From positions 1,216,001 to 1,280,000 of the forward strand of contig OZ243938.1 in NCBI GenBank assembly GCA_965214095.1: a stretch of 64,000 nt of DNA, in the 5' to 3' direction. Below the pieces are notes generated by a model, which searched no databases, was not told the DNA's origin, and saw only the letters and a list, made by a program, of their open reading frames with translations. Positions 11,823 through 19,809 of the stretch are shown one piece after another (the first letter of the stretch is position 1; every line of letters begins with the position of its first letter). The translations under genes and the position numbers were made by a program. This DNA is from Candidatus Poribacteria bacterium. GTDB lineage: Bacteria; Poribacteria; WGA-4E; WGA-3G.

Positions 11823-12790
11823 CTATTTATCAGTGGTTGATTCTGAGCTTATAAAACATTCACCGGTTTTGAGTTGGTATCCATTTACAAAATCTTTTGC
11901 CGACATAACCTTTTTCGTTGCAGGTTGAACTTGTAGCAGTTGGATTTCTCCTTCTCCAGTCCTAACAAATAAATTTTGTTCTGCATCTATCCTGATTGTA
12001 CCGGGTTGTTCATTCAATTGAGTTTCTTCCGTATTTTCTAATTGAACTTGAATGACCTTGATCAATGTATTTTCAGAAAAAAAAGTGTATGCTCCTGGCC
12101 ATCCTGATGTGCCTCTAATTAGATTATGGATTTTGGTTGAAGATTCAGACCAATTTATACATCCTATCTCTTTAGAAAGTCGTGGTGCATGTGTTGCCTC
12201 TGTGTGATGCTGAGGTGTTGAAGGTGGTGGCTCTCCTGGTTGTAAGTTAGCTAAGACATCTATCAATAACTTCGCACCAATGTCTGCTAATTTCTGATGT
12301 AACGTTAAGGCTGTATCCTCAGGTTCAATCGGTATTCGCTCCATACAGATAATGTCACCGGTATCTTCACCAACATCTAAAAGCATTAGCGTTACACCGT
12401 CTCTTTCTCCCCATTAATTAATGCCCATTGTATCGGGGCAGCCCCTCTGTACTTTGGTAATAGTGATGGGTGTAGGTTAATAACACCGCAAGGCGGGATA
12501 TCTAATACTGATTGTGGCAATAACTGACCAAAAGCAGTAACGACCATGACATCTGGATCAAGTCGTCTCAGATATTCTACAAACTCTTTTTTTCTAACTT
12601 TTTCAGGTTGATACACCTGCAAGTCATGGTTTAATGCGATCTCCTTCACTGGTGAAGGCTTTAATTTTTTCCCTCTACCACTTGGACGATCTGGTTGTGT
12701 AACTACTCCAAGAATTTCATGATTTTCTGCAATTAAAGCGGACAATGCAGGATTTGCAAATTCGCTTGTTCCCATAAACAGAACACGCAT
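11823..12790 (-). pseudogene. fmt: Methionyl-tRNA formyltransferase, frameshifted near 12397 (real lesion or assembly error)
   Basis: N-half RVLFMGT...NLHPSLLPKYRGAAPIQ; C-half in another frame; adding one G restores the conserved ETGVTLM. Confidence 0.85.
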
Positions 12791-12844: not shown

Positions 12845-13408
12845 TTAAAATCGAATCTCAAGTAGAGGTATGGCTATACCAATTGGCGGATCATTTGTCC
12901 ACATATTCAGTTGGTTTGTTGTCATAGTTTCATGCGGATGGTCAAAATAGGTTGAGATACCATAAAAGTTAACATGTGGACCTAAACTTGGTATACCAGC
13001 AAGCGTTCCTTCGGGTGGAACCTCCTCCTCAGTCGGAGGGGTTGGAGGTTTACGACCTGGAACACTCGGTGCTGACCTATCAACATTTCGGGTATGTAAC
13101 CAATCCCATATTCCTATAAAAAGTGATAACGAAACCGCACTAATACCCATCACACGATAATTCTGTGGAGTCAATATAGGTGCAATTTTGTTTGTCTGTA
13201 TCATCTTTACACCACGAACCCCCAAATAACTATGCACTGCAGTGAATGGAAGAGAACTTAAAGTAACTATTTCAAAACGACGAAGAGCACTTTCACTATA
13301 TTCTTCATGTTGTGTTTCTTGTTCTTGTGCCTGTGCTTGTAAATGTGGAATAATACCAAGAAAACAGACTATAGAGATCGCAAAAATTCTAATGTAATAT
13401 TTGAACAT
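12845..13408 (-). CDS. Hypothetical exported/membrane protein with Pro-rich segment
   Basis: Signal-peptide-like N-terminus; hydrophobic segments; co-oriented in operon. Confidence 0.65.
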   Translation of the reverse strand: MFKYYIRIFAISIVCFLGIIPHLQAQAQEQETQHEEYSESALRRFEIVTLSSLPFTAVHSYLGVRGVKMIQTNKIAPILTPQNYRVMGISAVSLSLFIGIWDWLHTRNVDRSAPSVPGRKPPTPPTEEEVPPEGTLAGIPSLGPHVNFYGISTYFDHPHETMTTNQLNMWTNDPPIGIAIPLLEIRF

Positions 13409-13473: not shown

Positions 13474-13962
13474 TCAGTTTGTGGTTTGTTGAACACGAAA
13501 GAGATAAACGATGAGCATGCCAGCACCGATACATACAGATATATCAGCAACATTAAATGTAGGCCAATAAAGCCTTTTGCTTTCAATACCAAACTGAAGA
13601 AAATCAACAACTTCACCCAGATAGATTCTGTCAATAAAGTTTCCTACTGCACCACCAAGAAGAAACCCTAATGAGACCTGCATCCATCGACTGTGTTTGA
13701 ATCTAAACGAATAAACAACTATGAAAATTAAGGCAGCTATTGTAATTATGACCAATAGGGTACGTTGGTCAGATAATATACCGAATGCCGCTCCTGAATT
13801 TCTATCATGTCGTAAGGTAAAAAAACCTTCAATTATTGTGATACCACTCCCTTTAGGAATGTGGTCCTGAACCAGACGTTTGGTGATGATGTCAAGCACT
13901 AATGACGGAATTGCTACGATGATTAATGGAAATATATTCTTAAAATATTGAATTGGTGACAT
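13474..13962 (-). CDS. lspA: Lipoprotein signal peptidase II
   Basis: NSGAAFG, GAVGNFIDR, VVDF, FNVAD motifs. Confidence 0.95.
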   Translation of the reverse strand: MSPIQYFKNIFPLIIVAIPSLVLDIITKRLVQDHIPKGSGITIIEGFFTLRHDRNSGAAFGILSDQRTLLVIITIAALIFIVVYSFRFKHSRWMQVSLGFLLGGAVGNFIDRIYLGEVVDFLQFGIESKRLYWPTFNVADISVCIGAGMLIVYLFRVQQTTN

Positions 13963-13986: not shown

Positions 13987-16557
13987 TTAGGTTTTTGATT
14001 TATCAGATTGTTTCAGTGATTTCCACTCATCATTTGTATTCATTTCGTCATCTATGTGTGGTAAGTGGTACCACTTTTCTTCAAAAATACTCTTCTTAGT
14101 TGAGAACACTTCTGTGTAAAACTCTTCAGCTAAGTAAGGGAGAATGGGAGCAATCCGTTGAAGAAGTATTTTGAAGATAGAAGTTAGTGCAGTATTAGCA
14201 GAATCTGATTTATCAGTTTTACATAAACTGAGATAAAAGGCTAATTCTGACTGGCAAAATTCAAACAGCAATACCCACATCTTGTAAAAATCATACTTCT
14301 CATATACATCTTGAAGGTGTGTTTGAAATTGATGTGTTATCAATATAACAAGTTTATCTTGTTTCTGAAGTTTGTCATAGTCCTTCACATTACTTTCACT
14401 TAGTAATGATGGCTGTTTTTTCTTTTTAGTTTTCTTAAAGTCGGATATTATCTCAGCAACCTGACAAAACGTCTCCTTTAGACTTTCATAGTTTTGATAG
14501 TATTTTTCTATCAAGGTTTCAAGTTGTTCGGTTTCCGCGCTTTCCTGAGGAACTTGATGTACATCAGGAGTAATTGAGAATAACCTGATAATGTCTGCTG
14601 GATATTTTTCCAAGATATCGTCATGAATCTCAGTTTCCCATACTACTTCGTCAATTTCATTTAATTCCAAGTGCTTAAATGGATGACTCTCTTTTGAAGG
14701 TCTACTGAGTTGAAGCGACACAGCTAACACGCTCAATTCACCTAACCATTTTACAAATGGTGTTCTTGGTACAAATGCAACATTGGTGGGTGCCTCAAGG
14801 GCAGATTTCTTAAAATCTGATATGTCAAGTGTTTGGAGTAAATTCGCAAAGTAACTCTCTATATTAGTTGACTCTTTCCGAAAATCCTTAGAATGACAGT
14901 TCATACAAGCCGCATCTGTAGGTAATAACTCTTCAACGCTAAGTCGGAACCAATGTTCTGAACCACGCCTAATTGAACTACGAACTGTACGAAGTATTTT
15001 CTTATCAATTATAAGTTGATTGCAGTTATCGCATCTTAACACAGGTAGCGGAATGCCCCACTGTCTCTGCGATGATATTTTCATATCAGATACACTCATC
15101 ATTTGGTTTTTTATGTCATCGCGAATTGCCTCATCATAATGTTCCCAATACTCAGGAGATGTCGTAATTTCATCAGATGTACCTACTGAGGATGTGCTAA
15201 AGGTCCAATGCCGGAAAGGACGTAAGACCGATGTACCGTTGCAGTGTTGACATTCAAGATGTTCAATCTTCCGTTTTCGGGTATTAATCAAGCAATCACG
15301 ACTTTCCAACTCATCTGTAATAAACTGAATCGCATTTTTTAAGTATAAACCACAAAGCATATCAGCATCTTCCGTAAAACGACCAGTTTCATCAAATATA
15401 GGTGTTGTTGTTGATGATAAAAACTTGGAATTAATGGTGTTACGAAGATGAGGTAACGCACTAAATATGTTGTGGCTAAGTGTGTGATGTGCTGGATTAA
15501 GTGGAATAATTCCATCCATCAATTCTTTTTTCTCTGAAGGATCCGACACATTTTGTAAAATCTTTTCTGGTATGGTAAAAAAGGGAAGGTCGGTGAGCGA
15601 AAATAGTGGGTGTGAAAGCGTGCAATTATTCAGATGTTTTGTATTAAATTTCGTGAGAACTTTGGGAACACTCTTATCTTCGGTGTTTGGATTAGTGAAT
15701 TGTTTCAATTGTGGTTCAGCAAAGATCAGATATTGATCATCAAATTCAGTCAAGCAAAAGTGAGTCTTTTCAAATATGCCAATACCGATAGTGCCAGCGA
15801 TCTCCCACAATTGATTCAATGGAAATCGCACGGCAAAATATATATCTTTTCCAAGCTCTTCAAAACCAATGTTGAATGGAAATTTGACAAAAGTGTATAA
15901 GGTATTTCTGGATACTGGTGTAACAGTCTTACCTGGTTCCAATGGAGTAACACAATTAGGACACCAATGGCTGAGTTTCAGTTCATCTTGAAGATAATTT
16001 GAGTCTCTTAGTCTATCAAAGAAACTGAAGAGTTTTGTATCGTAACGTGCCTCTAAAGTCTTATCGGCTGAACTCCAATCTGCAAATACACCGAGAGCTG
16101 CTAACTTTTGCTGTTGTGATTTCAGACATTCACTATATAATTGCCGGCACTGTTTTCTGAAATTAATAATATTTCCCGACGTTTTTGCATTATTCTCTCT
16201 TATCACACTCGCTTCAATGCTAAATGGAAACGTTTCCCACAGTGGTGAATATGCAACGGAGTGTCCATGCATCATTTCATACTTTAGGAATATATCTTGA
16301 TATATCTTTCTCCGTAACGTGTCTGCATTCAGTCTATGAACCGGTGTCGGCATTTCACGTATTACATAAGTTGGCAATTCAGTCGTTTTTTCATCAACTT
16401 TATACACCTTGCGTTTGTTCCACAGATTGAGGATATCAGTTTCAAGTGATTTGTGTTTCACCTTGTCTGTGGGAACAGAAACAATGTCTTTTTGTGTTGA
16501 TTTACGACCAGACCGTGATGTAGTAGATTTTTTTGTCGAAGGATTTTTCTCTTTCAT
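13987..16557 (-). CDS. Degenerate isoleucyl-tRNA synthetase-like protein (class Ia fold; HIGH, KMSKS and editing motifs absent)
   Basis: Colinear IleRS remnants (LGVFADW, WCPNCVTPL, FVKFP, DETGRFT, SSQRQWGIPLP, CMNC..FRKE, YPADIIRL, IAPILPYLAEE); sits directly before lspA. Confidence 0.85.
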   Translation of the reverse strand: MKEKNPSTKKSTTSRSGRKSTQKDIVSVPTDKVKHKSLETDILNLWNKRKVYKVDEKTTELPTYVIREMPTPVHRLNADTLRRKIYQDIFLKYEMMHGHSVAYSPLWETFPFSIEASVIRENNAKTSGNIINFRKQCRQLYSECLKSQQQKLAALGVFADWSSADKTLEARYDTKLFSFFDRLRDSNYLQDELKLSHWCPNCVTPLEPGKTVTPVSRNTLYTFVKFPFNIGFEELGKDIYFAVRFPLNQLWEIAGTIGIGIFEKTHFCLTEFDDQYLIFAEPQLKQFTNPNTEDKSVPKVLTKFNTKHLNNCTLSHPLFSLTDLPFFTIPEKILQNVSDPSEKKELMDGIIPLNPAHHTLSHNIFSALPHLRNTINSKFLSSTTTPIFDETGRFTEDADMLCGLYLKNAIQFITDELESRDCLINTRKRKIEHLECQHCNGTSVLRPFRHWTFSTSSVGTSDEITTSPEYWEHYDEAIRDDIKNQMMSVSDMKISSQRQWGIPLPVLRCDNCNQLIIDKKILRTVRSSIRRGSEHWFRLSVEELLPTDAACMNCHSKDFRKESTNIESYFANLLQTLDISDFKKSALEAPTNVAFVPRTPFVKWLGELSVLAVSLQLSRPSKESHPFKHLELNEIDEVVWETEIHDDILEKYPADIIRLFSITPDVHQVPQESAETEQLETLIEKYYQNYESLKETFCQVAEIISDFKKTKKKKQPSLLSESNVKDYDKLQKQDKLVILITHQFQTHLQDVYEKYDFYKMWVLLFEFCQSELAFYLSLCKTDKSDSANTALTSIFKILLQRIAPILPYLAEEFYTEVFSTKKSIFEEKWYHLPHIDDEMNTNDEWKSLKQSDKSKT

Positions 16558-16640: not shown

Positions 16641-16907
16641 CTACATAATCAACAATTGCTGTAGAAAGTACAATAAAAATAATAACACCATCGGTGAAAA
16701 ATCTATACCGATATTTCTACTCACTGGTTGCATTGCGTTTCGCAGCGGCTGCAGAATAGGATCAACAAGTTGACCCGTGAACGAATAGACTCGTTGTAAA
16801 GTGTCATTTCGTGTGCTTAATACAATCCATGAGAGTATTACGTTTATGAATACGATAAATATGTAAACTTTAAGCACACGACTAAGAACGTAGATAAGAA
16901 TTGTCAT
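16641..16907 (-). CDS. yggT: YggT family membrane protein
   Basis: ILSW...LVDPILQPLR...GIDFSP motif; follows proC. Confidence 0.9.
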   Translation of the reverse strand: MTILIYVLSRVLKVYIFIVFINVILSWIVLSTRNDTLQRVYSFTGQLVDPILQPLRNAMQPVSRNIGIDFSPMVLLFLLYFLQQLLIM

Positions 16908-16914
16908 TACCAGT

Positions 16915-17742
16915 TTATCCTCTTCTATTTGTCGTACCAAGTTGTTCTGCTCGATCTGTAGCGGCAATTATTGCTTCTGCAAGCGTTGCACGGAATCCAC
17001 CTTTCTCAAGTTCATGCAGTCCGGCTGCTGTTGTTCCTCCAGGTGTCGTAACCCGATTTTTTAATGTAGCTGGATGTTCTTTGGTTTCTGCTAACATCTT
17101 AGCTGCTCCTAATACCGTATGGGTCGCAAGAATCTGTGCATCCTGTCGTGGTAACCCTACATGAACGCCTGCATCCGCTAACGCTTCAATGAATAGGGCA
17201 ACGTAAGCTGGACCGCTACCACTAACGCCTGTTACCGCATTCAGGTGTCGTTCATCCATAACTAATGTCGTTCCACATGTATTAAAGACCTTTTCTGTAA
17301 TACGGAGATGCTTATCTTCTGCTGCAGTACCAGGTGTCAAGACTGAAATAGCAGCTTGGACAGAAGCTGCTATATTTGGCATTACCCGGATAATCGGTGG
17401 AAGGGTATCAAAGAATGATTCAAGTGATTCTGTTGTGACTCCCGCTGCAATGCTTATTAACAATTGCGATGATGAAAGAGTTGAGGCAACTTGAGGAAGA
17501 ATGTGAGGTATCGCTACCGGTGGTACCGCACAGACAATAACATCTATCTTTGGTATAAGTTTGTCTATACTTGCTGCGTCGTTAATACCCGTTTCTTCAC
17601 ATAGGTGTTTTACAAGTTTCTGGTCCAAATCGGTTACCCAAATCTGTTCTGCTGGTAACAGATTGTCAACAACACTTCGGACGATGATGCCTCCCATTTT
17701 TCCAACGCCGATAAACCCTATTTTTATGTTCTCATCCACCAT
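16915..17742 (-). CDS. proC: Pyrroline-5-carboxylate reductase
   Basis: GFIGVGKMG, ISIAAG, RVMPN, SGSGPAY, VTTPGGTT. Confidence 0.95.
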   Translation of the reverse strand: MVDENIKIGFIGVGKMGGIIVRSVVDNLLPAEQIWVTDLDQKLVKHLCEETGINDAASIDKLIPKIDVIVCAVPPVAIPHILPQVASTLSSSQLLISIAAGVTTESLESFFDTLPPIIRVMPNIAASVQAAISVLTPGTAAEDKHLRITEKVFNTCGTTLVMDERHLNAVTGVSGSGPAYVALFIEALADAGVHVGLPRQDAQILATHTVLGAAKMLAETKEHPATLKNRVTTPGGTTAAGLHELEKGGFRATLAEAIIAATDRAEQLGTTNRRG

Positions 17743-17799: not shown

Positions 17800-18519
17800 T
17801 TATTCAAAAATAGCTCGTCCAATTCTGACAATATTTGCCCCTTCTTCAATTGCAATTTCAAAATCGTTCGTCATTCCCATTGACAAGTATTGCATTGATA
17901 CACCTGGGAATTCCTGAGCCTGTATCTTTTCAGCTATAGTTCGTAATAAGGCAAATGCAGGACGGTTCTCCTCAGGAGAATCACCCAACATTCCCATAGT
18001 CATCAGACCTTTGATATTTGCTCCAGAATATGTCAATGATTCTTCAATAAATTGAGGCACATCAGCAGCATCCAACCCGAATTTACTTACTTCTTCGGTC
18101 GTGTTTATCTGTATCAAAACGTCAACTTGTTGATCATTCATTTCTGCGCGTCGGGATATCTCCTCTAACAAGCGCAAACTATCCACAGAATGAATCATAT
18201 CAAACATATCTAATGCGGACTTAACTTTATTCCTCTGAAGATGACCAATAAGGTGCCATTCACAAGCAGAATCGGATGATGTGTAAGTGTTTGTTCTATT
18301 TATTGTCCGATTTATATTATTAAATTTTTGTTGTGTTTCCTGCACTCGGTTTTCACCGATAACGGTATGTCCAGTTTCAAGGACTTTATTTATTTCCTCT
18401 ACTGTACGCCCCTTTGTTACAACAACCAACTTTATGTCTTGCGGCGTGCGATCACTACGCACTGCAGCGAAGACAATTCTTTCCTTTACTTTCGTAAGGT
18501 TATCAGCAATTATGTTCAA
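17800..18519 (-). CDS. yggS: PLP homeostasis protein YggS/PROSC
   Basis: VVVTK, GENRVQE, WHLIGHLQRNK, LSMGMTNDF, RIGRAIF. Confidence 0.95.
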   Translation of the reverse strand: MNIIADNLTKVKERIVFAAVRSDRTPQDIKLVVVTKGRTVEEINKVLETGHTVIGENRVQETQQKFNNINRTINRTNTYTSSDSACEWHLIGHLQRNKVKSALDMFDMIHSVDSLRLLEEISRRAEMNDQQVDVLIQINTTEEVSKFGLDAADVPQFIEESLTYSGANIKGLMTMGMLGDSPEENRPAFALLRTIAEKIQAQEFPGVSMQYLSMGMTNDFEIAIEEGANIVRIGRAIFE

Positions 18520-18767: not shown

Positions 18768-19809
18768 AGACATTATAATGAATTAAATAGTAGGAGTTTC
18801 ATAACACCAGGGTCTGAAGTTTAGTCGAAAATTGTGTAAACCACAACAGGTTTCCATAACTAAGTCACAAAACCCTTTCTTCCAATTTCTGAGTTTGTCT
18901 TTGACAATGCGGTATCTTTTGACACCACTAATGGCATGTTCAACACGTATGCGTATAGACGCTATCTTTCTATTGATTTCTTTTTCTTTTTCTGTCAGTT
19001 CTCCACCTTTCGGTTTTTTCTTCGGTTGAACGATGTGAACATCAGGAAGAGTGAACCCCTGAAAACCGGTATCTTGATACAAGGTGCTTCCCGGGGGCAC
19101 ACAATAGCCCACCTGATCAGCTATGTATTTGTCATGGTGTCTTCCTTCAAAAGAGGGTGTCAATAGGACGACTTTGCAGCTCTCATTGATAATCAGATTA
19201 TTTTTTGCTGTATGACATTTCTTTTTACCGCTATAATATGCCTTTTGAGCTTCTGGGTCTCTTGGACGCCGTATTCGCCGTTCTATACCATCATGAAAAA
19301 AAATACGCTTTATCTTGACTTTGACTTGATACCTCACAAGTATCACACATAGATGTGGGAACTGTTTCCCGAGATGGCAGCTCTTCAAGTTCTGCTAATG
19401 CGGTGTTCAATATCGGTAAAAGCAAGTGAATCCATTTATTCGCAAGAGGTTGAGCCATACCAAAGAGCGTGCCGAATAGAACCTGTTTCGGAGCTTCATG
19501 AAGATAAATTAATATAAATAGCAACATATCTTCATGTGAAGCAAAACAACTATTCTTGTAGGGTTTATATCTCCGTTTTATGCGCGGTTTTCCATCAAGG
19601 GTATGTGTTTCCATATAAGCTAAAAAACATTTAGAAAAATGAGGTAATAGTTTTGTAAACTCTTCTAAAGTATATCCAGTGAGAGATAGAAGCGTATCAG
19701 CTTTGTCCTTAATATCTTCAAAAACGATAATGAGAAAACCTCCATTTATAAGATTGTAATTAGAATAACAGAGGTTAACTAAACTTGCAACTAAATCATT
19801 ATAATGTCT
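18768..19809 (-). mobile_element. IS5-family (ISL2-like) insertion sequence, copy 2, 1042 bp
   Basis: Same IRs, length and ORF translations as copy 1; 3-bp duplication TTT. Confidence 0.93.
18783..19731 (-). CDS. DDE transposase with frameshift (copy 2)
   Basis: Translations match copy 1, including the T8 site and ATT start. Confidence 0.85.

What the first reader, a model, noticed from the sequence alone, without database searches (positions are those of the whole stretch)
13987..16557. Full-length but catalytically stripped IleRS homologue at the canonical ileS locus
Seen: an uninterrupted 856-aa ORF between yggS-proC-yggT and lspA, colinear with IleRS. The HIGH region (normally PPYANG..H.GH) reads MPTPVHRLNADT. 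There is no KMSKS and no EG.DQ.RGWF. The CP1 editing motifs WTTTPWT and GTG.VH.AP.HG are replaced (RFPLNQLW; DGIIPLNPAHH). The CxxC pairs (CPNC, CQHC, CDNC, CMNC), the QRQWGIPLP motif and the anticodon-domain helix (IAPILPYLAEE) persist. It has a basic N-terminal tail and lacks the C-terminal zinc finger. Known: HIGH and KMSKS are required for aminoacyl-adenylate formation in class I synthetases, and ileS-lspA is a conserved gene pair. Inference: active-site loss with the frame and Zn ligands retained suggests selection for a non-aminoacylating role (tRNA binding, scaffolding or regulation), with a second ileS elsewhere doing the charging.
Basis: partly seen in the sequence, partly recalled or inferred. 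Interest (0 to 1): 0.85.

Follow-up and report, generated by a model that had tools for sequence, protein, structure and literature searches.

The report
Dead isoleucyl-tRNA synthetase kept by selection
A sponge-associated bacterial phylum keeps, at the old ileS position, a full-length copy of isoleucyl-tRNA synthetase that has lost its catalytic and proofreading motifs yet is still preserved by selection, while a second, antibiotic-resistant-type enzyme does the real work.

Summary
The 856-aa ORF (13987..16557, minus strand) is colinear with bacterial type-1 IleRS. It lacks HIGH, WDxHG, the Thr-rich and GTGxVHxAPxHGxxD editing motifs, EGxDQxRGWF, KMSKS and the C-terminal zinc domain. It keeps all four CxxC pairs. 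It scores 178 bits against NCBIfam ileS (cut-off 621).

The genome holds one real IleRS elsewhere: 1047 aa, type 2, with GVHH in place of HxGH.

The stripped protein is not decaying:
- Intact orthologues are in 111 of 111 genomes of its family and in several other classes of Candidatus Poribacteria, always between proC/yggT (or divIVA) and lspA.
- dN/dS is 0.13-0.19, against 0.05-0.07 for IleRS2 in the same genome pairs.
- dN/dS falls to 0.04 in residues 495-585.
- Two lineages deleted it cleanly, so it is dispensable.

AlphaFold2 (pLDDT 84.6) gives a complete IleRS1 architecture, VIA Z 26 to S. aureus IleRS.

The best reading is an IleRS1 relic, displaced by IleRS2 before the phylum diversified, that survives as a non-charging binding protein. 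The canonical tRNA-contact motifs are also gone. Constraint centres on the zinc knuckles, the CP2 insert and the remodelled core. RNA or protein binding there is inferred, not shown. I found no description in print.

The parts
13987..16557 (-). 856-aa IleRS1-derived pseudo-synthetase (P0001)
   Evidence: ORF. Pfam tRNA-synt_1 plus Anticodon_1. NCBIfam ileS 177.8 bits against a cut-off of 621.4. AF2 pLDDT 84.6. VIA Z 26.2 to 1qu3_A.
16450..16557 (-). Residues 1-36: disordered basic N-terminal tail (11 K+R, 3 D+E)
   Evidence: pLDDT about 30. Charge. Composition is kept in family f1 but absent in other families. dN/dS 0.38.
16318..16353 (-). Residues 69-80, MPTPVHRLNADT: the place of PPYANGxxHxGH (HIGH lost)
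   Evidence: Alignments. Not conserved between classes of the phylum.
16219..16242 (-). Residues 106-113, LWETFPFS: the place of GWDxHGLP (only W kept)
15952..15963 (-). CPNC (C199, C202): first half of the CP1-base zinc knuckle
   Evidence: C199 is invariant and C202 at least 90% conserved in 130 family sequences.
15838..15897 (-). Residues 221-240, family-specific conserved patch (KFPFxxGxExxG) at the entry of the editing domain
   Evidence: Mean conservation 0.60 in 25 deep family representatives against 0.34 in 28 intact IleRS1. P227, G231, E233 and G236 are conserved only in the family.
15799..15828 (-). Residues 244-253, RFPLNQLWEI: the place of the Thr-rich editing peptide WTTTPWT (only W251 kept)
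15475..15519 (-). Residues 347-361, MDGIIPLNPAHHTLS: the place of GTGxVHxAPxHGxxD (the editing Asp is Ser here)
   Evidence: Deep-branching family members still have xPGHxxxD.
15241..15252 (-). CQHC (C436, C439): second half of the CP1-base zinc knuckle
   Evidence: C436 is invariant and C439 at least 90% conserved.
14803..15075 (-). Residues 495-585: most constrained stretch (SQRQWGIPLP, CDNC, CMNC, EHWFRLSVEELLP, DFRKE, SDFKK). This is the CP2 insert with the second zinc knuckle.
   Evidence: dN/dS 0.042 against 0.15 for the whole protein. C509, C512, C551 and C554 are invariant in 130 sequences. The family is more conserved than IleRS1 in residues 501-560.
14743..14775 (-). Residues 595-605, FVPRTPFVKWL: the place of EGxDQxRGWF (only W604 kept)
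14635..14658 (-). Residues 634-641: the place of the KMSKS loop, variable within the family
   Evidence: dN/dS 0.24 for residues 641-700.
14059..14346 (-). Residues 738-833: helical anticodon-recognition domain 1 (Pfam Anticodon_1), fold kept, contact motifs mostly lost
   Evidence: pLDDT about 90. dN/dS 0.245. Only 3 of 27 IleRS1-conserved positions of residues 661-856 are kept in at least 70% of the deep family set.
13474..13962 (-). lspA (signal peptidase II), 24 nt downstream
   Evidence: Pfam Peptidase_A8 E 2.5e-40. The same neighbour is seen across the phylum.
16641..16967 (-). yggT, 83 nt upstream
   Evidence: Pfam YGGT E 2.8e-18.
16915..17742 (-). proC
   Evidence: Pfam P5CR_dimer E 2.7e-42.
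17800..18519 (-). yggS-type PLP-binding protein
   Evidence: Pfam Ala_racemase_N E 5e-17.

Best explanation
The ORF is the resident bacterial type-1 isoleucyl-tRNA synthetase gene of the yggS-proC-yggT-(divIVA)-ileS-lspA cluster.

In the ancestor of Candidatus Poribacteria it was functionally displaced by a type-2 IleRS encoded elsewhere. That enzyme now carries the GVHH signature variant.

Relieved of charging, the IleRS1 copy lost:
- the ATP, isoleucine and transfer motifs (HIGH, WDxHG, EGxDQxRGWF, KMSKS);
- the post-transfer editing motifs;
- the wobble-reading C-terminal module.

It did not decay. Selection has kept the whole multi-domain fold, both Cys4 zinc knuckles and a nearly frozen CP2 stretch (residues 495-585).

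Shown here: homology, motif loss, the second real IleRS, purifying selection, phylum-wide synteny, and clean loss in two lineages.

Inferred: it no longer activates isoleucine or charges tRNA (about 0.9). It acts as a binding protein, not an enzyme. Its working surface is the zinc-knuckle/CP2 face together with the remodelled Rossmann core.

My preferred partner is RNA, bound at the acceptor-arm side and helped in this family by the basic N-terminal tail (about 0.35). A protein partner, HisZ-style, is next (about 0.25). The function is accessory, since two lineages live without it.
For: Motif loss:
- All six motif sets are absent by alignment to solved IleRS1 and to 121 representatives.
- Of 158 positions at least 85% conserved in 28 intact IleRS1, P0001 keeps 50, mostly W, G, P and C.
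- NCBIfam ileS scores 177.8 bits against a cut-off of 621.4.
- Published work found no natural IleRS1 with a non-canonical signature. Even the GXHH swap abolished product formation in IleRS1 (PMC10485003, passages read).

Real enzyme elsewhere:
- Only one match in the genome is over the cut-off. It is 1047 aa with GVHH, editing motifs and KMSKS.
- One real IleRS2 was found in each of 5 of 5 other Poribacteria genomes checked, with or without the relic.

IleRS1 origin:
- The family profile matches PmIleRS1 colinearly over residues 38-855 against 23-804 (191.9 bits). It matches PmIleRS2 at 118 bits over the N-terminal half only.
- In the tree the family is monophyletic (28 tips, support 0.999). 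It falls with IleRS1 and outside the IleRS2 clade (support 1.0).
- It occupies the ileS-lspA position.

Selection:
- dN/dS is 0.13-0.19 for unsaturated pairs; one near-identical pair (L014/L015, dS 0.047) gives 0.47.
- By region: 0.042 for residues 495-585, 0.08-0.11 for the core halves, 0.18 for the editing domain and 0.245 for ARD1.
- 154 of 176 genomes of the phylum match at E<=1e-30, and 111 of 111 in family f1.
- C199, C436, C509, C512, C551 and C554 are invariant in 130 sequences, and C202 and C439 are at least 90% conserved.

Fold:
- AF2 pLDDT 84.6, pTM 0.84.
- Foldseek top hits are IleRS1 structures.
- VIA Z 26.2, 743 residues aligned to S. aureus IleRS.

Family-specific conserved patches lie at 221-240 and 501-560.
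Against: - There is no biochemical and no expression evidence. No listed run is on record as RNA.
- The protein is dispensable. Family f2 (0 of 11) and genus g3 (0 of 4) lack it, and there lspA follows proC/yggT directly.
- Constraint is about three times weaker than on IleRS2 in the same genome pairs (0.14-0.19 against 0.045-0.067).
- Against ordinary tRNA binding: the RNTxRF stem-contact motif, most conserved ARD1 positions, ARD2 and the zinc domain are lost. ARD1 is the least constrained folded domain. Overall pI is not basic (median 6.24 against 5.96 for IleRS1). The basic tail is confined to family f1.
- Between classes of the phylum the former active-site residues are not conserved. No single new pocket is evident.
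- The node joining the family to IleRS1 has weak support (0.633). The family branch is about twice as long as the others (2.63 against 1.22), so long-branch effects are possible.
Confidence: 0.7

Rival explanations
1. It is still a working isoleucyl-tRNA synthetase, or a synthetase for another amino acid, that uses unrecognised equivalents of the signature motifs.
For: The full-length fold is retained. Type-2 IleRS tolerates a swapped HIGH (GXHH) (PMC10485003). This shows that signature motifs can vary.
Against: - No His or Lys equivalents align at HIGH or KMSKS.
- The KMSKS-equivalent loop and the HIGH-equivalent stretch vary within the family.
- The residues that hold the amino acid and adenylate (the WDxHG Asp/His, EGxDQ) are gone.
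- IleRS1 did not tolerate even GXHH.
- A complete IleRS2 is present in every genome checked.
- The gene was deleted in two lineages with no replacement at the locus.
Confidence: 0.03
2. It is a gene in slow decay (a pseudogene in the ordinary sense). It is kept open only by chance, or because its transcription or translation is needed for the downstream lspA.
For: It was lost cleanly in f2 and g3. dN/dS is higher than for IleRS2. The assembly has at least one frameshifted housekeeping gene nearby (fmt).
Against: - 856-aa frames are open in all 12 orthologues examined in the genus.
- Matches in 111 of 111 genomes of the family.
- Homologues of 734-887 aa are at the same locus in other families and classes at 26-33% identity.
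- dN/dS is far below 1, and 0.04 in residues 495-585.
- Six of the eight zinc-ligand Cys are invariant in 130 sequences and the other two are at least 90% conserved.
- A high-confidence fold.
Confidence: 0.04
3. It is a regulatory or scaffolding subunit that binds a protein partner, as HisZ (a HisRS paralogue) does with HisG. The conserved zinc-knuckle/CP2 face would be the interface.
For: - The strongest constraint is on a surface insert (residues 495-585) and on family-specific patches, not on the RNA-reading domains.
- Overall charge is not basic.
- Precedents exist for non-charging aaRS paralogues (PMC9437257, passages).
Against: No partner is suggested by gene order. The neighbours are the ancestral ileS neighbours, and they stay when the gene is lost. 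No complex was predicted or tested.
Confidence: 0.25
4. It is an enzyme with a new activity that uses the old fold. Examples would be an aminoacyl-tRNA-dependent transferase like SbzA, or a hydrolase in the former editing pocket.
For: - The editing-domain fold is kept with conserved His316, Pro317 and His357.
- Deep-branching members keep xPGHxxxD.
- SbzA shows that an IleRS homologue can use Ile-tRNA as donor (PMC6331615, passages).
Against: - SbzA keeps HIGH- and KMSKS-like motifs and sits in a biosynthetic cluster. This protein has neither.
- The Thr-rich peptide is lost in all members, and the editing Asp is lost in the window's family.
- There is no conserved pocket across classes.
Confidence: 0.08

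Closest known systems
Bacterial type-1 isoleucyl-tRNA synthetase (IleRS1; P. megaterium 8C9E, S. aureus 1QU2/1QU3)
   Same: - Colinear domain order: Rossmann/HUP core split by CP1, editing domain and CP2, then ARD1.
- The Cys4 knuckles seen in many IleRS1.
- The position upstream of lspA.
- Best sequence and fold matches.
   Different: - All catalytic and editing signature motifs are missing.
- The last ~110 residues (rest of ARD2 and the zinc-binding domain) are missing.
- 18-20% identity.
- Below the NCBIfam cut-off.
LeuRS-I of Sulfolobaceae (non-aminoacylating LeuRS duplicate)
   Same: A class Ia synthetase copy that coexists with the working enzyme, has a disrupted editing domain and does not charge tRNA (PMC9437257, passages read).
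   Different: LeuRS-I still forms leucyl-adenylate and binds tRNA-Leu, according to that review. Here the adenylate-forming motifs themselves are gone. The origin is displacement by a xenologous type, not a simple duplication.
HisZ (HisRS paralogue, regulatory subunit of ATP phosphoribosyltransferase)
   Same: An aaRS-derived protein without aminoacylation that is kept for a non-translational role. It is listed in PMC9437257. The regulatory-subunit detail is recalled.
   Different: HisZ is class II and truncated, and has a known partner and ligand. This protein is class I and full-length, and has no known partner.
SbzA (IleRS-like aminoacyl-tRNA-dependent transferase, Streptomyces)
   Same: An IleRS homologue that coexists with a housekeeping IleRS and has a function other than charging (PMC6331615).
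   Different: SbzA keeps slightly modified HIGH and KMSKS motifs, retains weak charging and sits in a secondary-metabolite cluster. It was modelled on T. thermophilus IleRS at 37.6% identity.
IleRS1/IleRS2 pairs in Bacilli and mupirocin producers
   Same: Two IleRS types in one genome, with type 2 being the mupirocin-resistant kind (abstract listings; passages).
   Different: In those pairs both enzymes are active. Here the type-1 partner is catalytically stripped, and this state is ancestral to a phylum.

Membership tests
Isoleucine--tRNA ligase (NCBIfam TIGR00392 equivalog, EC 6.1.1.5) | Whole-protein score over the curated cut-off | tested here: not met
   177.8 bits against 621.4. 136 + 45 bits in the genome search.
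Isoleucine--tRNA ligase (NCBIfam TIGR00392 equivalog, EC 6.1.1.5) | HIGH (HxGH, or GxHH in some type 2) signature | tested here: not met
   LNAD aligns to HMGH. There is no conserved His in the family at this site.
Isoleucine--tRNA ligase (NCBIfam TIGR00392 equivalog, EC 6.1.1.5) | KMSKS loop | tested here: not met
   NEIDEV aligns to KMSKS. The loop is variable in the family.
Isoleucine--tRNA ligase (NCBIfam TIGR00392 equivalog, EC 6.1.1.5) | Amino-acid/adenylate pocket motifs GWDxHGLP and EGxDQxRGWF | tested here: not met
   Only W107 and W604 remain.
Isoleucine--tRNA ligase (NCBIfam TIGR00392 equivalog, EC 6.1.1.5) | CP1 editing motifs (Thr-rich peptide; GTGxVHxAPxHGxxD) | tested here: not met
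   PLNQLW and DGIIPLNPAHHTLS. The Asp is replaced by Ser.
Isoleucine--tRNA ligase (NCBIfam TIGR00392 equivalog, EC 6.1.1.5) | Class Ia multi-domain fold in IleRS order | tested here: met
   AF2 pLDDT 84.6. Foldseek E 2e-34 to 8c9f. VIA Z 26.2, rmsd 9.3, 743 residues aligned to 1qu3_A.
Isoleucine--tRNA ligase (NCBIfam TIGR00392 equivalog, EC 6.1.1.5) | Ile activation and tRNA-Ile charging | not testable with these tools
   Needs ATP-PPi exchange and aminoacylation assays.
Type-1 (bacterial) IleRS lineage | Closer to IleRS1 than to IleRS2 in sequence, and placed with IleRS1 in a tree | tested here: met
   Profile 191.9 bits full-length to PmIleRS1 against 118 bits for half-length to PmIleRS2. 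The family lies outside the IleRS2 clade (support 1.0), but the joining node has support of only 0.633.
Type-1 (bacterial) IleRS lineage | C-terminal treble-clef zinc-binding domain (definition from PMC13752280) | tested here: not met
   The protein ends at PmIleRS1 residue ~804-810 of 921. No PF06827 hit. The four C-terminal Cys columns of IleRS1 are gaps.
Type-1 (bacterial) IleRS lineage | Gene upstream of lspA | tested here: met
   30 of 66 true-IleRS1 loci have an LspA-like gene within 3 kb, 29 by my same-strand, downstream filter.
Pfam tRNA-synt_1 (PF00133) + Anticodon_1 (PF08264) | Scores over the gathering cut-offs | tested here: met
   89.2 bits against 22.7, and 51.6 bits against 25.1.
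Non-charging aaRS-derived proteins (pseudo-synthetases such as HisZ, LeuRS-I) | aaRS ancestry, catalytic residues lost, a working aaRS of the same specificity present | tested here: met
Non-charging aaRS-derived proteins (pseudo-synthetases such as HisZ, LeuRS-I) | Maintained by purifying selection | tested here: met
   dN/dS 0.13-0.19 for unsaturated pairs, with one near-identical pair (dS 0.047) at 0.47. 0.042 in residues 495-585. Phylum-wide intact orthologues.
Non-charging aaRS-derived proteins (pseudo-synthetases such as HisZ, LeuRS-I) | A demonstrated alternative function or partner | not tested
   No complex prediction or assay was done. Gene order gives no candidate.
SbzA-like aminoacyl-tRNA-dependent transferases | Retained HIGH/KMSKS-like motifs and a biosynthetic-cluster context (PMC6331615) | tested here: not met
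   Motifs are absent. The neighbours are housekeeping genes.

The most novel reading that the evidence does not exclude
Poribacteria carry a previously undescribed family of full-length class Ia pseudo-synthetases. This is an IleRS1 that lost all chemistry after displacement by a GVHH-type IleRS2. It was then recruited, through its zinc knuckles and CP2 insert, to a new macromolecular-binding job. Examples would be holding or sensing tRNA acceptor arms or another RNA, or regulating a protein. A second, independent degenerate IleRS1 clade in deltaproteobacterial MAGs hints that this route is recurrent after IleRS type replacement.
Probability: 0.35. Interest if true: 0.8.

Novelty: new variant of a known kind. 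Interest (0 to 1): 0.62.

Why it matters
- It is a natural, phylum-wide example of what happens to an essential enzyme gene after a foreign isoenzyme takes over. The gene was neither lost nor kept as a back-up. It was stripped of catalysis and retained as something else.
- The IleRS literature I read states that no natural IleRS1 with a non-canonical signature motif is known (PMC10485003). This family is an IleRS1 descendant with no signature motifs at all.
- It gives a clean system for asking which parts of a class Ia synthetase have value apart from catalysis: the zinc knuckles, CP2 and the hinge.
- Databases label members 'isoleucyl-tRNA synthetase' or 'class I tRNA ligase family protein'. 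That could mislead metabolic reconstructions and marker-gene counts.

Tried and rejected
Expression. The look-up of sequencing runs listed no holder on record as RNA. This says nothing about expression.

Charge. Whole-protein pI and net charge do not separate the family from true IleRS1. I dropped 'basic protein' as an argument.

IleRS2 length as a correlate of relic loss. Lengths were 1069, 1130 and 1173 aa without the relic, and 1129, 1055 and 1047 aa with it. There is no pattern.

Leader RNA. An Rfam gathering scan of the whole window found 0 families, so no T-box lies upstream. Promoter-like sites were not more frequent than in shuffles (18 against 22.2 expected). One TTGACA-18-CAGAAT site lies just upstream of the start, but I give it no weight.

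First structure job. The 24-sequence alignment gave pLDDT 64. It was replaced by the 130-sequence job.

Taxon of the deepest degenerate sequences.
- P0133's best matches in five further Poribacteria genomes were only 26-33% identical.
- Its 42%-identical relative P0135 is labelled Candidatus Poribacteria by NCBI.
- I therefore treat that clade as Poribacteria. P0140, P0237 and P0240 remain unplaced.

Complex prediction was not used. There is no motivated partner, and the protein with IleRS2, or two copies of it, would exceed 1000 residues.

I could not map the conserved patches in 3-D or compute electrostatics.

Stops flagged inside matches.
- marks 8 matches with 1-2 stops.
- For G021 and G005 the ORFs are intact (854 and 853 aa).
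- For G030 the ORF is intact (770 aa).
- The other five were not checked.

Rows dropped.
- For some searches I kept only representatives of 700-1100 aa (121 of 148, P0121-P0268).
- For A2 I left out fragments, a few near-duplicates, and P0132 and P0141 (intact IleRS1).

Literature. Searches found no paper describing a catalytically stripped IleRS in Poribacteria or elsewhere. Passages of PMC10485003, PMC13752280 (and its preprint), PMC9437257, PMC6331615 and PMC5388404 were read by term search only. Supplements are closed and I did not ask for them. The supplementary trees and alignments of PMC10485003 and PMC13752280, and Supplementary Fig. 34 of PMC6331615, could bear on whether such sequences were seen and discarded.

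Recalled, not from a call: the B. subtilis gene order (ylmE-sepF-ylmG-ylmH-divIVA-ileS-lspA), the HisZ-HisG partnership, and the roles of individual IleRS motif residues.

Full report
**1. The observation**

The window holds an uninterrupted 856-aa ORF at 13987..16557 on the minus strand. Pfam finds tRNA-synt_1 (89.2 bits, residues 42-620) and Anticodon_1 (51.6 bits, residues 738-833). NCBIfam's ileS equivalog scores 177.8 bits, far under its cut-off of 621.4.

Residue-by-residue alignments were made to solved IleRS1 structures and to 121 library representatives.

| IleRS1 motif | What this protein has |
|---|---|
| PPYANGxxHxGH | MPTPVHRLNADT |
| GWDxHGLP | LWETFPFS |
| WTTTPWT | FPLNQLW |
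| GTGxVHxAPxHGxxD | MDGIIPLNPAHHTLS |
| EGxDQxRGWF | VPRTPFVKWL |
| KMSKS | NEIDEV |

The four CxxC pairs, QRQWGIPLP and IAPILPYLAEE are present. The protein stops where P. megaterium IleRS1 is at residue ~804-810 of 921. It therefore lacks the rest of ARD2 and the zinc-binding domain.

The neighbours are a YggS-type protein, ProC and YggT upstream and LspA downstream.

**2. A real IleRS exists elsewhere**

In the 5.25-Mb genome (4 contigs, 94% complete) only one place exceeds the ileS cut-off: C1:3563969-3566479, at 966.6 bits. Its 1047-aa product has GWDTHGLP, TTTPWT, an intact editing motif and KMSKS. Its signature reads GVHH instead of HxGH.

That is the swapped motif of mupirocin-hyper-resistant type-2 IleRS described by Brkic et al. 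(PMC10485003). According to the passages I read, that paper also reports two things: no natural IleRS1 with a non-canonical signature is known, and the GXHH swap abolishes product formation in IleRS1.

**3. The stripped protein is a conserved family, not a decaying gene**

Orthologues:
- A search of 5.8 billion proteins gave 185 hits. The best 120 are 37-88% identical and mostly 850-930 aa.
- Where named, they are labelled 'class I tRNA ligase family protein', 'hypothetical protein' or 'isoleucyl-tRNA synthetase' of Candidatus Poribacteria.
- All 24 of 24 same-genus genomes hold an orthologue at 48-82% identity.
- The 12 that I cut out all have open frames of 849-862 aa.

Phylum scan with the family profile:
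- 154 of 176 genomes match at E<=1e-30 (119 of 133 among high-quality genomes).
- By family: f1 111/111, f3 25/29, f4 6/7, f8 7/8, f2 0/11.
- f2 genomes hold an IleRS2 yet give no match. This shows that the threshold does not pick up IleRS2.

In one-per-species GTDB genomes, one search kept 80 of 595 matched stretches:
- The 14 loci at 36-80% identity are 13 Candidatus Poribacteria MAGs and one 'uncultured bacterium'.
- The other 66, at 21-24% identity, are ordinary IleRS1 of Atribacterota, Bacillota and others.

**4. Synteny and history**

- In other families of the order, the homologue (734-819 aa, 26-31% identical) lies in the same yggS-proC-X-lspA-hypothetical-(def)-fmt-PASTA-rpe string.
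- In other classes, an 843-887-aa homologue lies between a DivIVA-like gene and lspA.
- All of these lack HIGH, KMSKS and the other motifs.
- In f2 (two genomes) and g3 (one genome), lspA follows proC directly after a 0.4-0.8-kb gap. This is a clean deletion.
- Among the 66 true-IleRS1 loci of other phyla, 30 have an LspA-like gene within 3 kb, and 29 of these passed my rough same-strand, downstream filter. The position is therefore the ancestral ileS1 position.

Tree (137 sequences, 884 columns, FastTree LG+gamma, rooted on the genome's own ValRS):
- The Poribacteria proteins form one clade of 28 tips (support 0.999).
- The clade lies with IleRS1 and outside the IleRS2 clade (support 1.0).
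- The joining node is weak (0.633), and the family's branches are about twice as long (2.63 against 1.22).

Against PDB sequences, the family profile matches IleRS1 over its whole length (191.9 bits). It matches IleRS2 only over the N-terminal half (118 bits).

Each of five further Poribacteria genomes checked has exactly one IleRS over the cut-off, and it is type-2-like, whether or not the relic is present.

The simplest history is this. The phylum's ancestor already used IleRS2, and its IleRS1 had already lost catalysis. The relic was then kept in most lineages and deleted in two.

**5. Selection**

Nei-Gojobori dN/dS for orthologue pairs with unsaturated dS is 0.13-0.19, apart from one near-identical pair (L014/L015, dS 0.047) at 0.47. 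For IleRS2 in the same four genomes it is 0.045-0.067.

| Region of the relic | dN/dS |
|---|---|
| Residues 495-585 | 0.042 |
| C-terminal core half with CP2 | 0.083 |
| N-terminal core half | 0.113 |
| Editing domain | 0.178 |
| ARD1 | 0.245 |
| Basic tail | 0.378 |

In a 130-sequence alignment, 21 positions are invariant: W107, F158, W161, W198, C199, P227, G231, E233, G236, P317, G392, C436, R446, W451, P505, C509, C512, C551, C554, D655 and R658. C202 and C439 are at least 90% conserved.

I compared 25 deep family representatives with 28 intact IleRS1:
- The family is more conserved than the enzymes in residues 221-240 (0.60 against 0.34) and 501-560 (0.55-0.62 against 0.36-0.49).
- It is much less conserved at every catalytic and editing motif.

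Of 158 positions at least 85% conserved in IleRS1, P0001 keeps 50. In the region 661-856, only 3 of 27 are kept by at least 70% of the deep set. The RNTxRF helix is among the losses.

**6. Structure**

With the 130-sequence alignment, AlphaFold2 gives pLDDT 84.6 and pTM 0.84. Only residues 1-30 are disordered.

- Foldseek's best matches are PmIleRS1 (E 2e-34) and S. aureus IleRS with tRNA.
- VIA-align gives Z 26.2 (rmsd 9.3, 743 residues aligned, model 31-856 to chain 17-809 of 1qu3_A) and Z 25.7 to 8c9e.
- The high rmsd fits domain-hinge differences in a multi-domain protein.

The fold is a complete IleRS1 body minus the C-terminal module.

**7. Mechanism**

Shown: ancestry, motif loss, the presence of a working IleRS2, purifying selection with a hot spot, and dispensability in two lineages.

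Inferred: the protein neither activates isoleucine nor charges or edits tRNA. What selection preserves is a shape with two zinc knuckles, a frozen CP2 insert and a repacked core. That points to a binding protein.

I prefer RNA as the ligand (about 0.35), for three reasons:
- The retained parts are those that, in class Ia enzymes, face the acceptor arm. This is general knowledge, not tested here.
- Family-gained basic residues sit in or near the hot spot (R526, R171).
- The window's family added a Lys/Arg-rich disordered tail.

Three things count against ordinary tRNA-Ile recognition:
- Loss of the stem-contact and anticodon-reading elements.
- Relaxed constraint on ARD1.
- An unremarkable overall pI.

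A protein partner (about 0.25), a new catalytic activity (about 0.08), slow decay (about 0.04) and residual synthetase activity (about 0.03) are the rivals.

**8. Comparison with what is known**

- It works like the known non-charging aaRS relatives (LeuRS-I, HisZ; PMC9437257). It differs from LeuRS-I in having lost the adenylation motifs as well. It differs from HisZ in class, length and the lack of a known partner.
- It is not SbzA-like. SbzA keeps HIGH/KMSKS-like motifs and lies in a biosynthetic cluster (PMC6331615).
- It fails the membership tests for IleRS as an enzyme family. It passes those for the class I fold and for IleRS1 descent, except for the zinc-binding domain.

**9. Novelty**

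My searches and the passages read turned up no description of such a protein. Supplements could not be seen.

I rate it a new variant of a known kind (aaRS-derived pseudo-synthetase), with interest 0.62. It is a clear, old and well-conserved case that would surprise people who work on IleRS, but its function is still a guess.

Noticed in passing
window 11823..12790 (-): fmt (methionyl-tRNA formyltransferase) is split into a 132-aa ORF (Formyl_trans_N) and a 187-aa ORF (the rest, plus Formyl_trans_C). The cause is a one-base frameshift at a short G run near 12390. Relatives have an intact 317-353-aa fmt at the same place. This is either an assembly indel or a young pseudogene.
   Followed up: partly
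window 18783..19614 (-): An IS5-like transposase lies in two overlapping ORFs: HTH_Tnp_4 (19291..19614) and DDE_Tnp_4 (18783..19388). It sits directly upstream of the yggS end of the cluster.
   Followed up: partly
G000:C1:3563969-3566479 (locus L001), outside the window: The genome's working IleRS is type 2 and carries GVHH in place of HxGH. This is the variant linked to mupirocin hyper-resistance in PMC10485003.
   Followed up: partly
loci L126-L130 (IleRS2 of G025, G054, G037, G032, G026): Two kinds of working IleRS2 occur within the phylum. One has GWDTHGLP/KMSKS (also in G000). The other has GFDCQGLW and xMHKS and is 1119-1166 aa. The relic coexists with either kind, which suggests a later swap of the working enzyme.
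   Followed up: partly
proteins P0153, P0167, P0170, P0161, P0148, P0168 and others (13 tips): A second, separate clade of partly degenerate IleRS1-like proteins has HIGH and KMSKS lost and WDxHG mostly kept. It is nested inside IleRS1 (support 0.993). P0153 is 37-40% identical to ordinary IleRS1, and its 86%-identical relative is labelled 'Deltaproteobacteria bacterium'. P0244 and P0254 look like degenerate IleRS2. I did not check whether those genomes hold another IleRS.
   Followed up: partly
window 12845..13408 (-): A 187-aa ORF after lspA has no Pfam match and an N-terminal hydrophobic segment. Its motif ESALRRFEIVTL is conserved in every Poribacteria locus examined, including those that lost the relic.
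   Followed up: no
G038:C1:34-1440 and 6470501-6471367: In one relative, the relic gene runs across the start of a circular single-contig assembly and therefore appears as two pieces.
   Followed up: no
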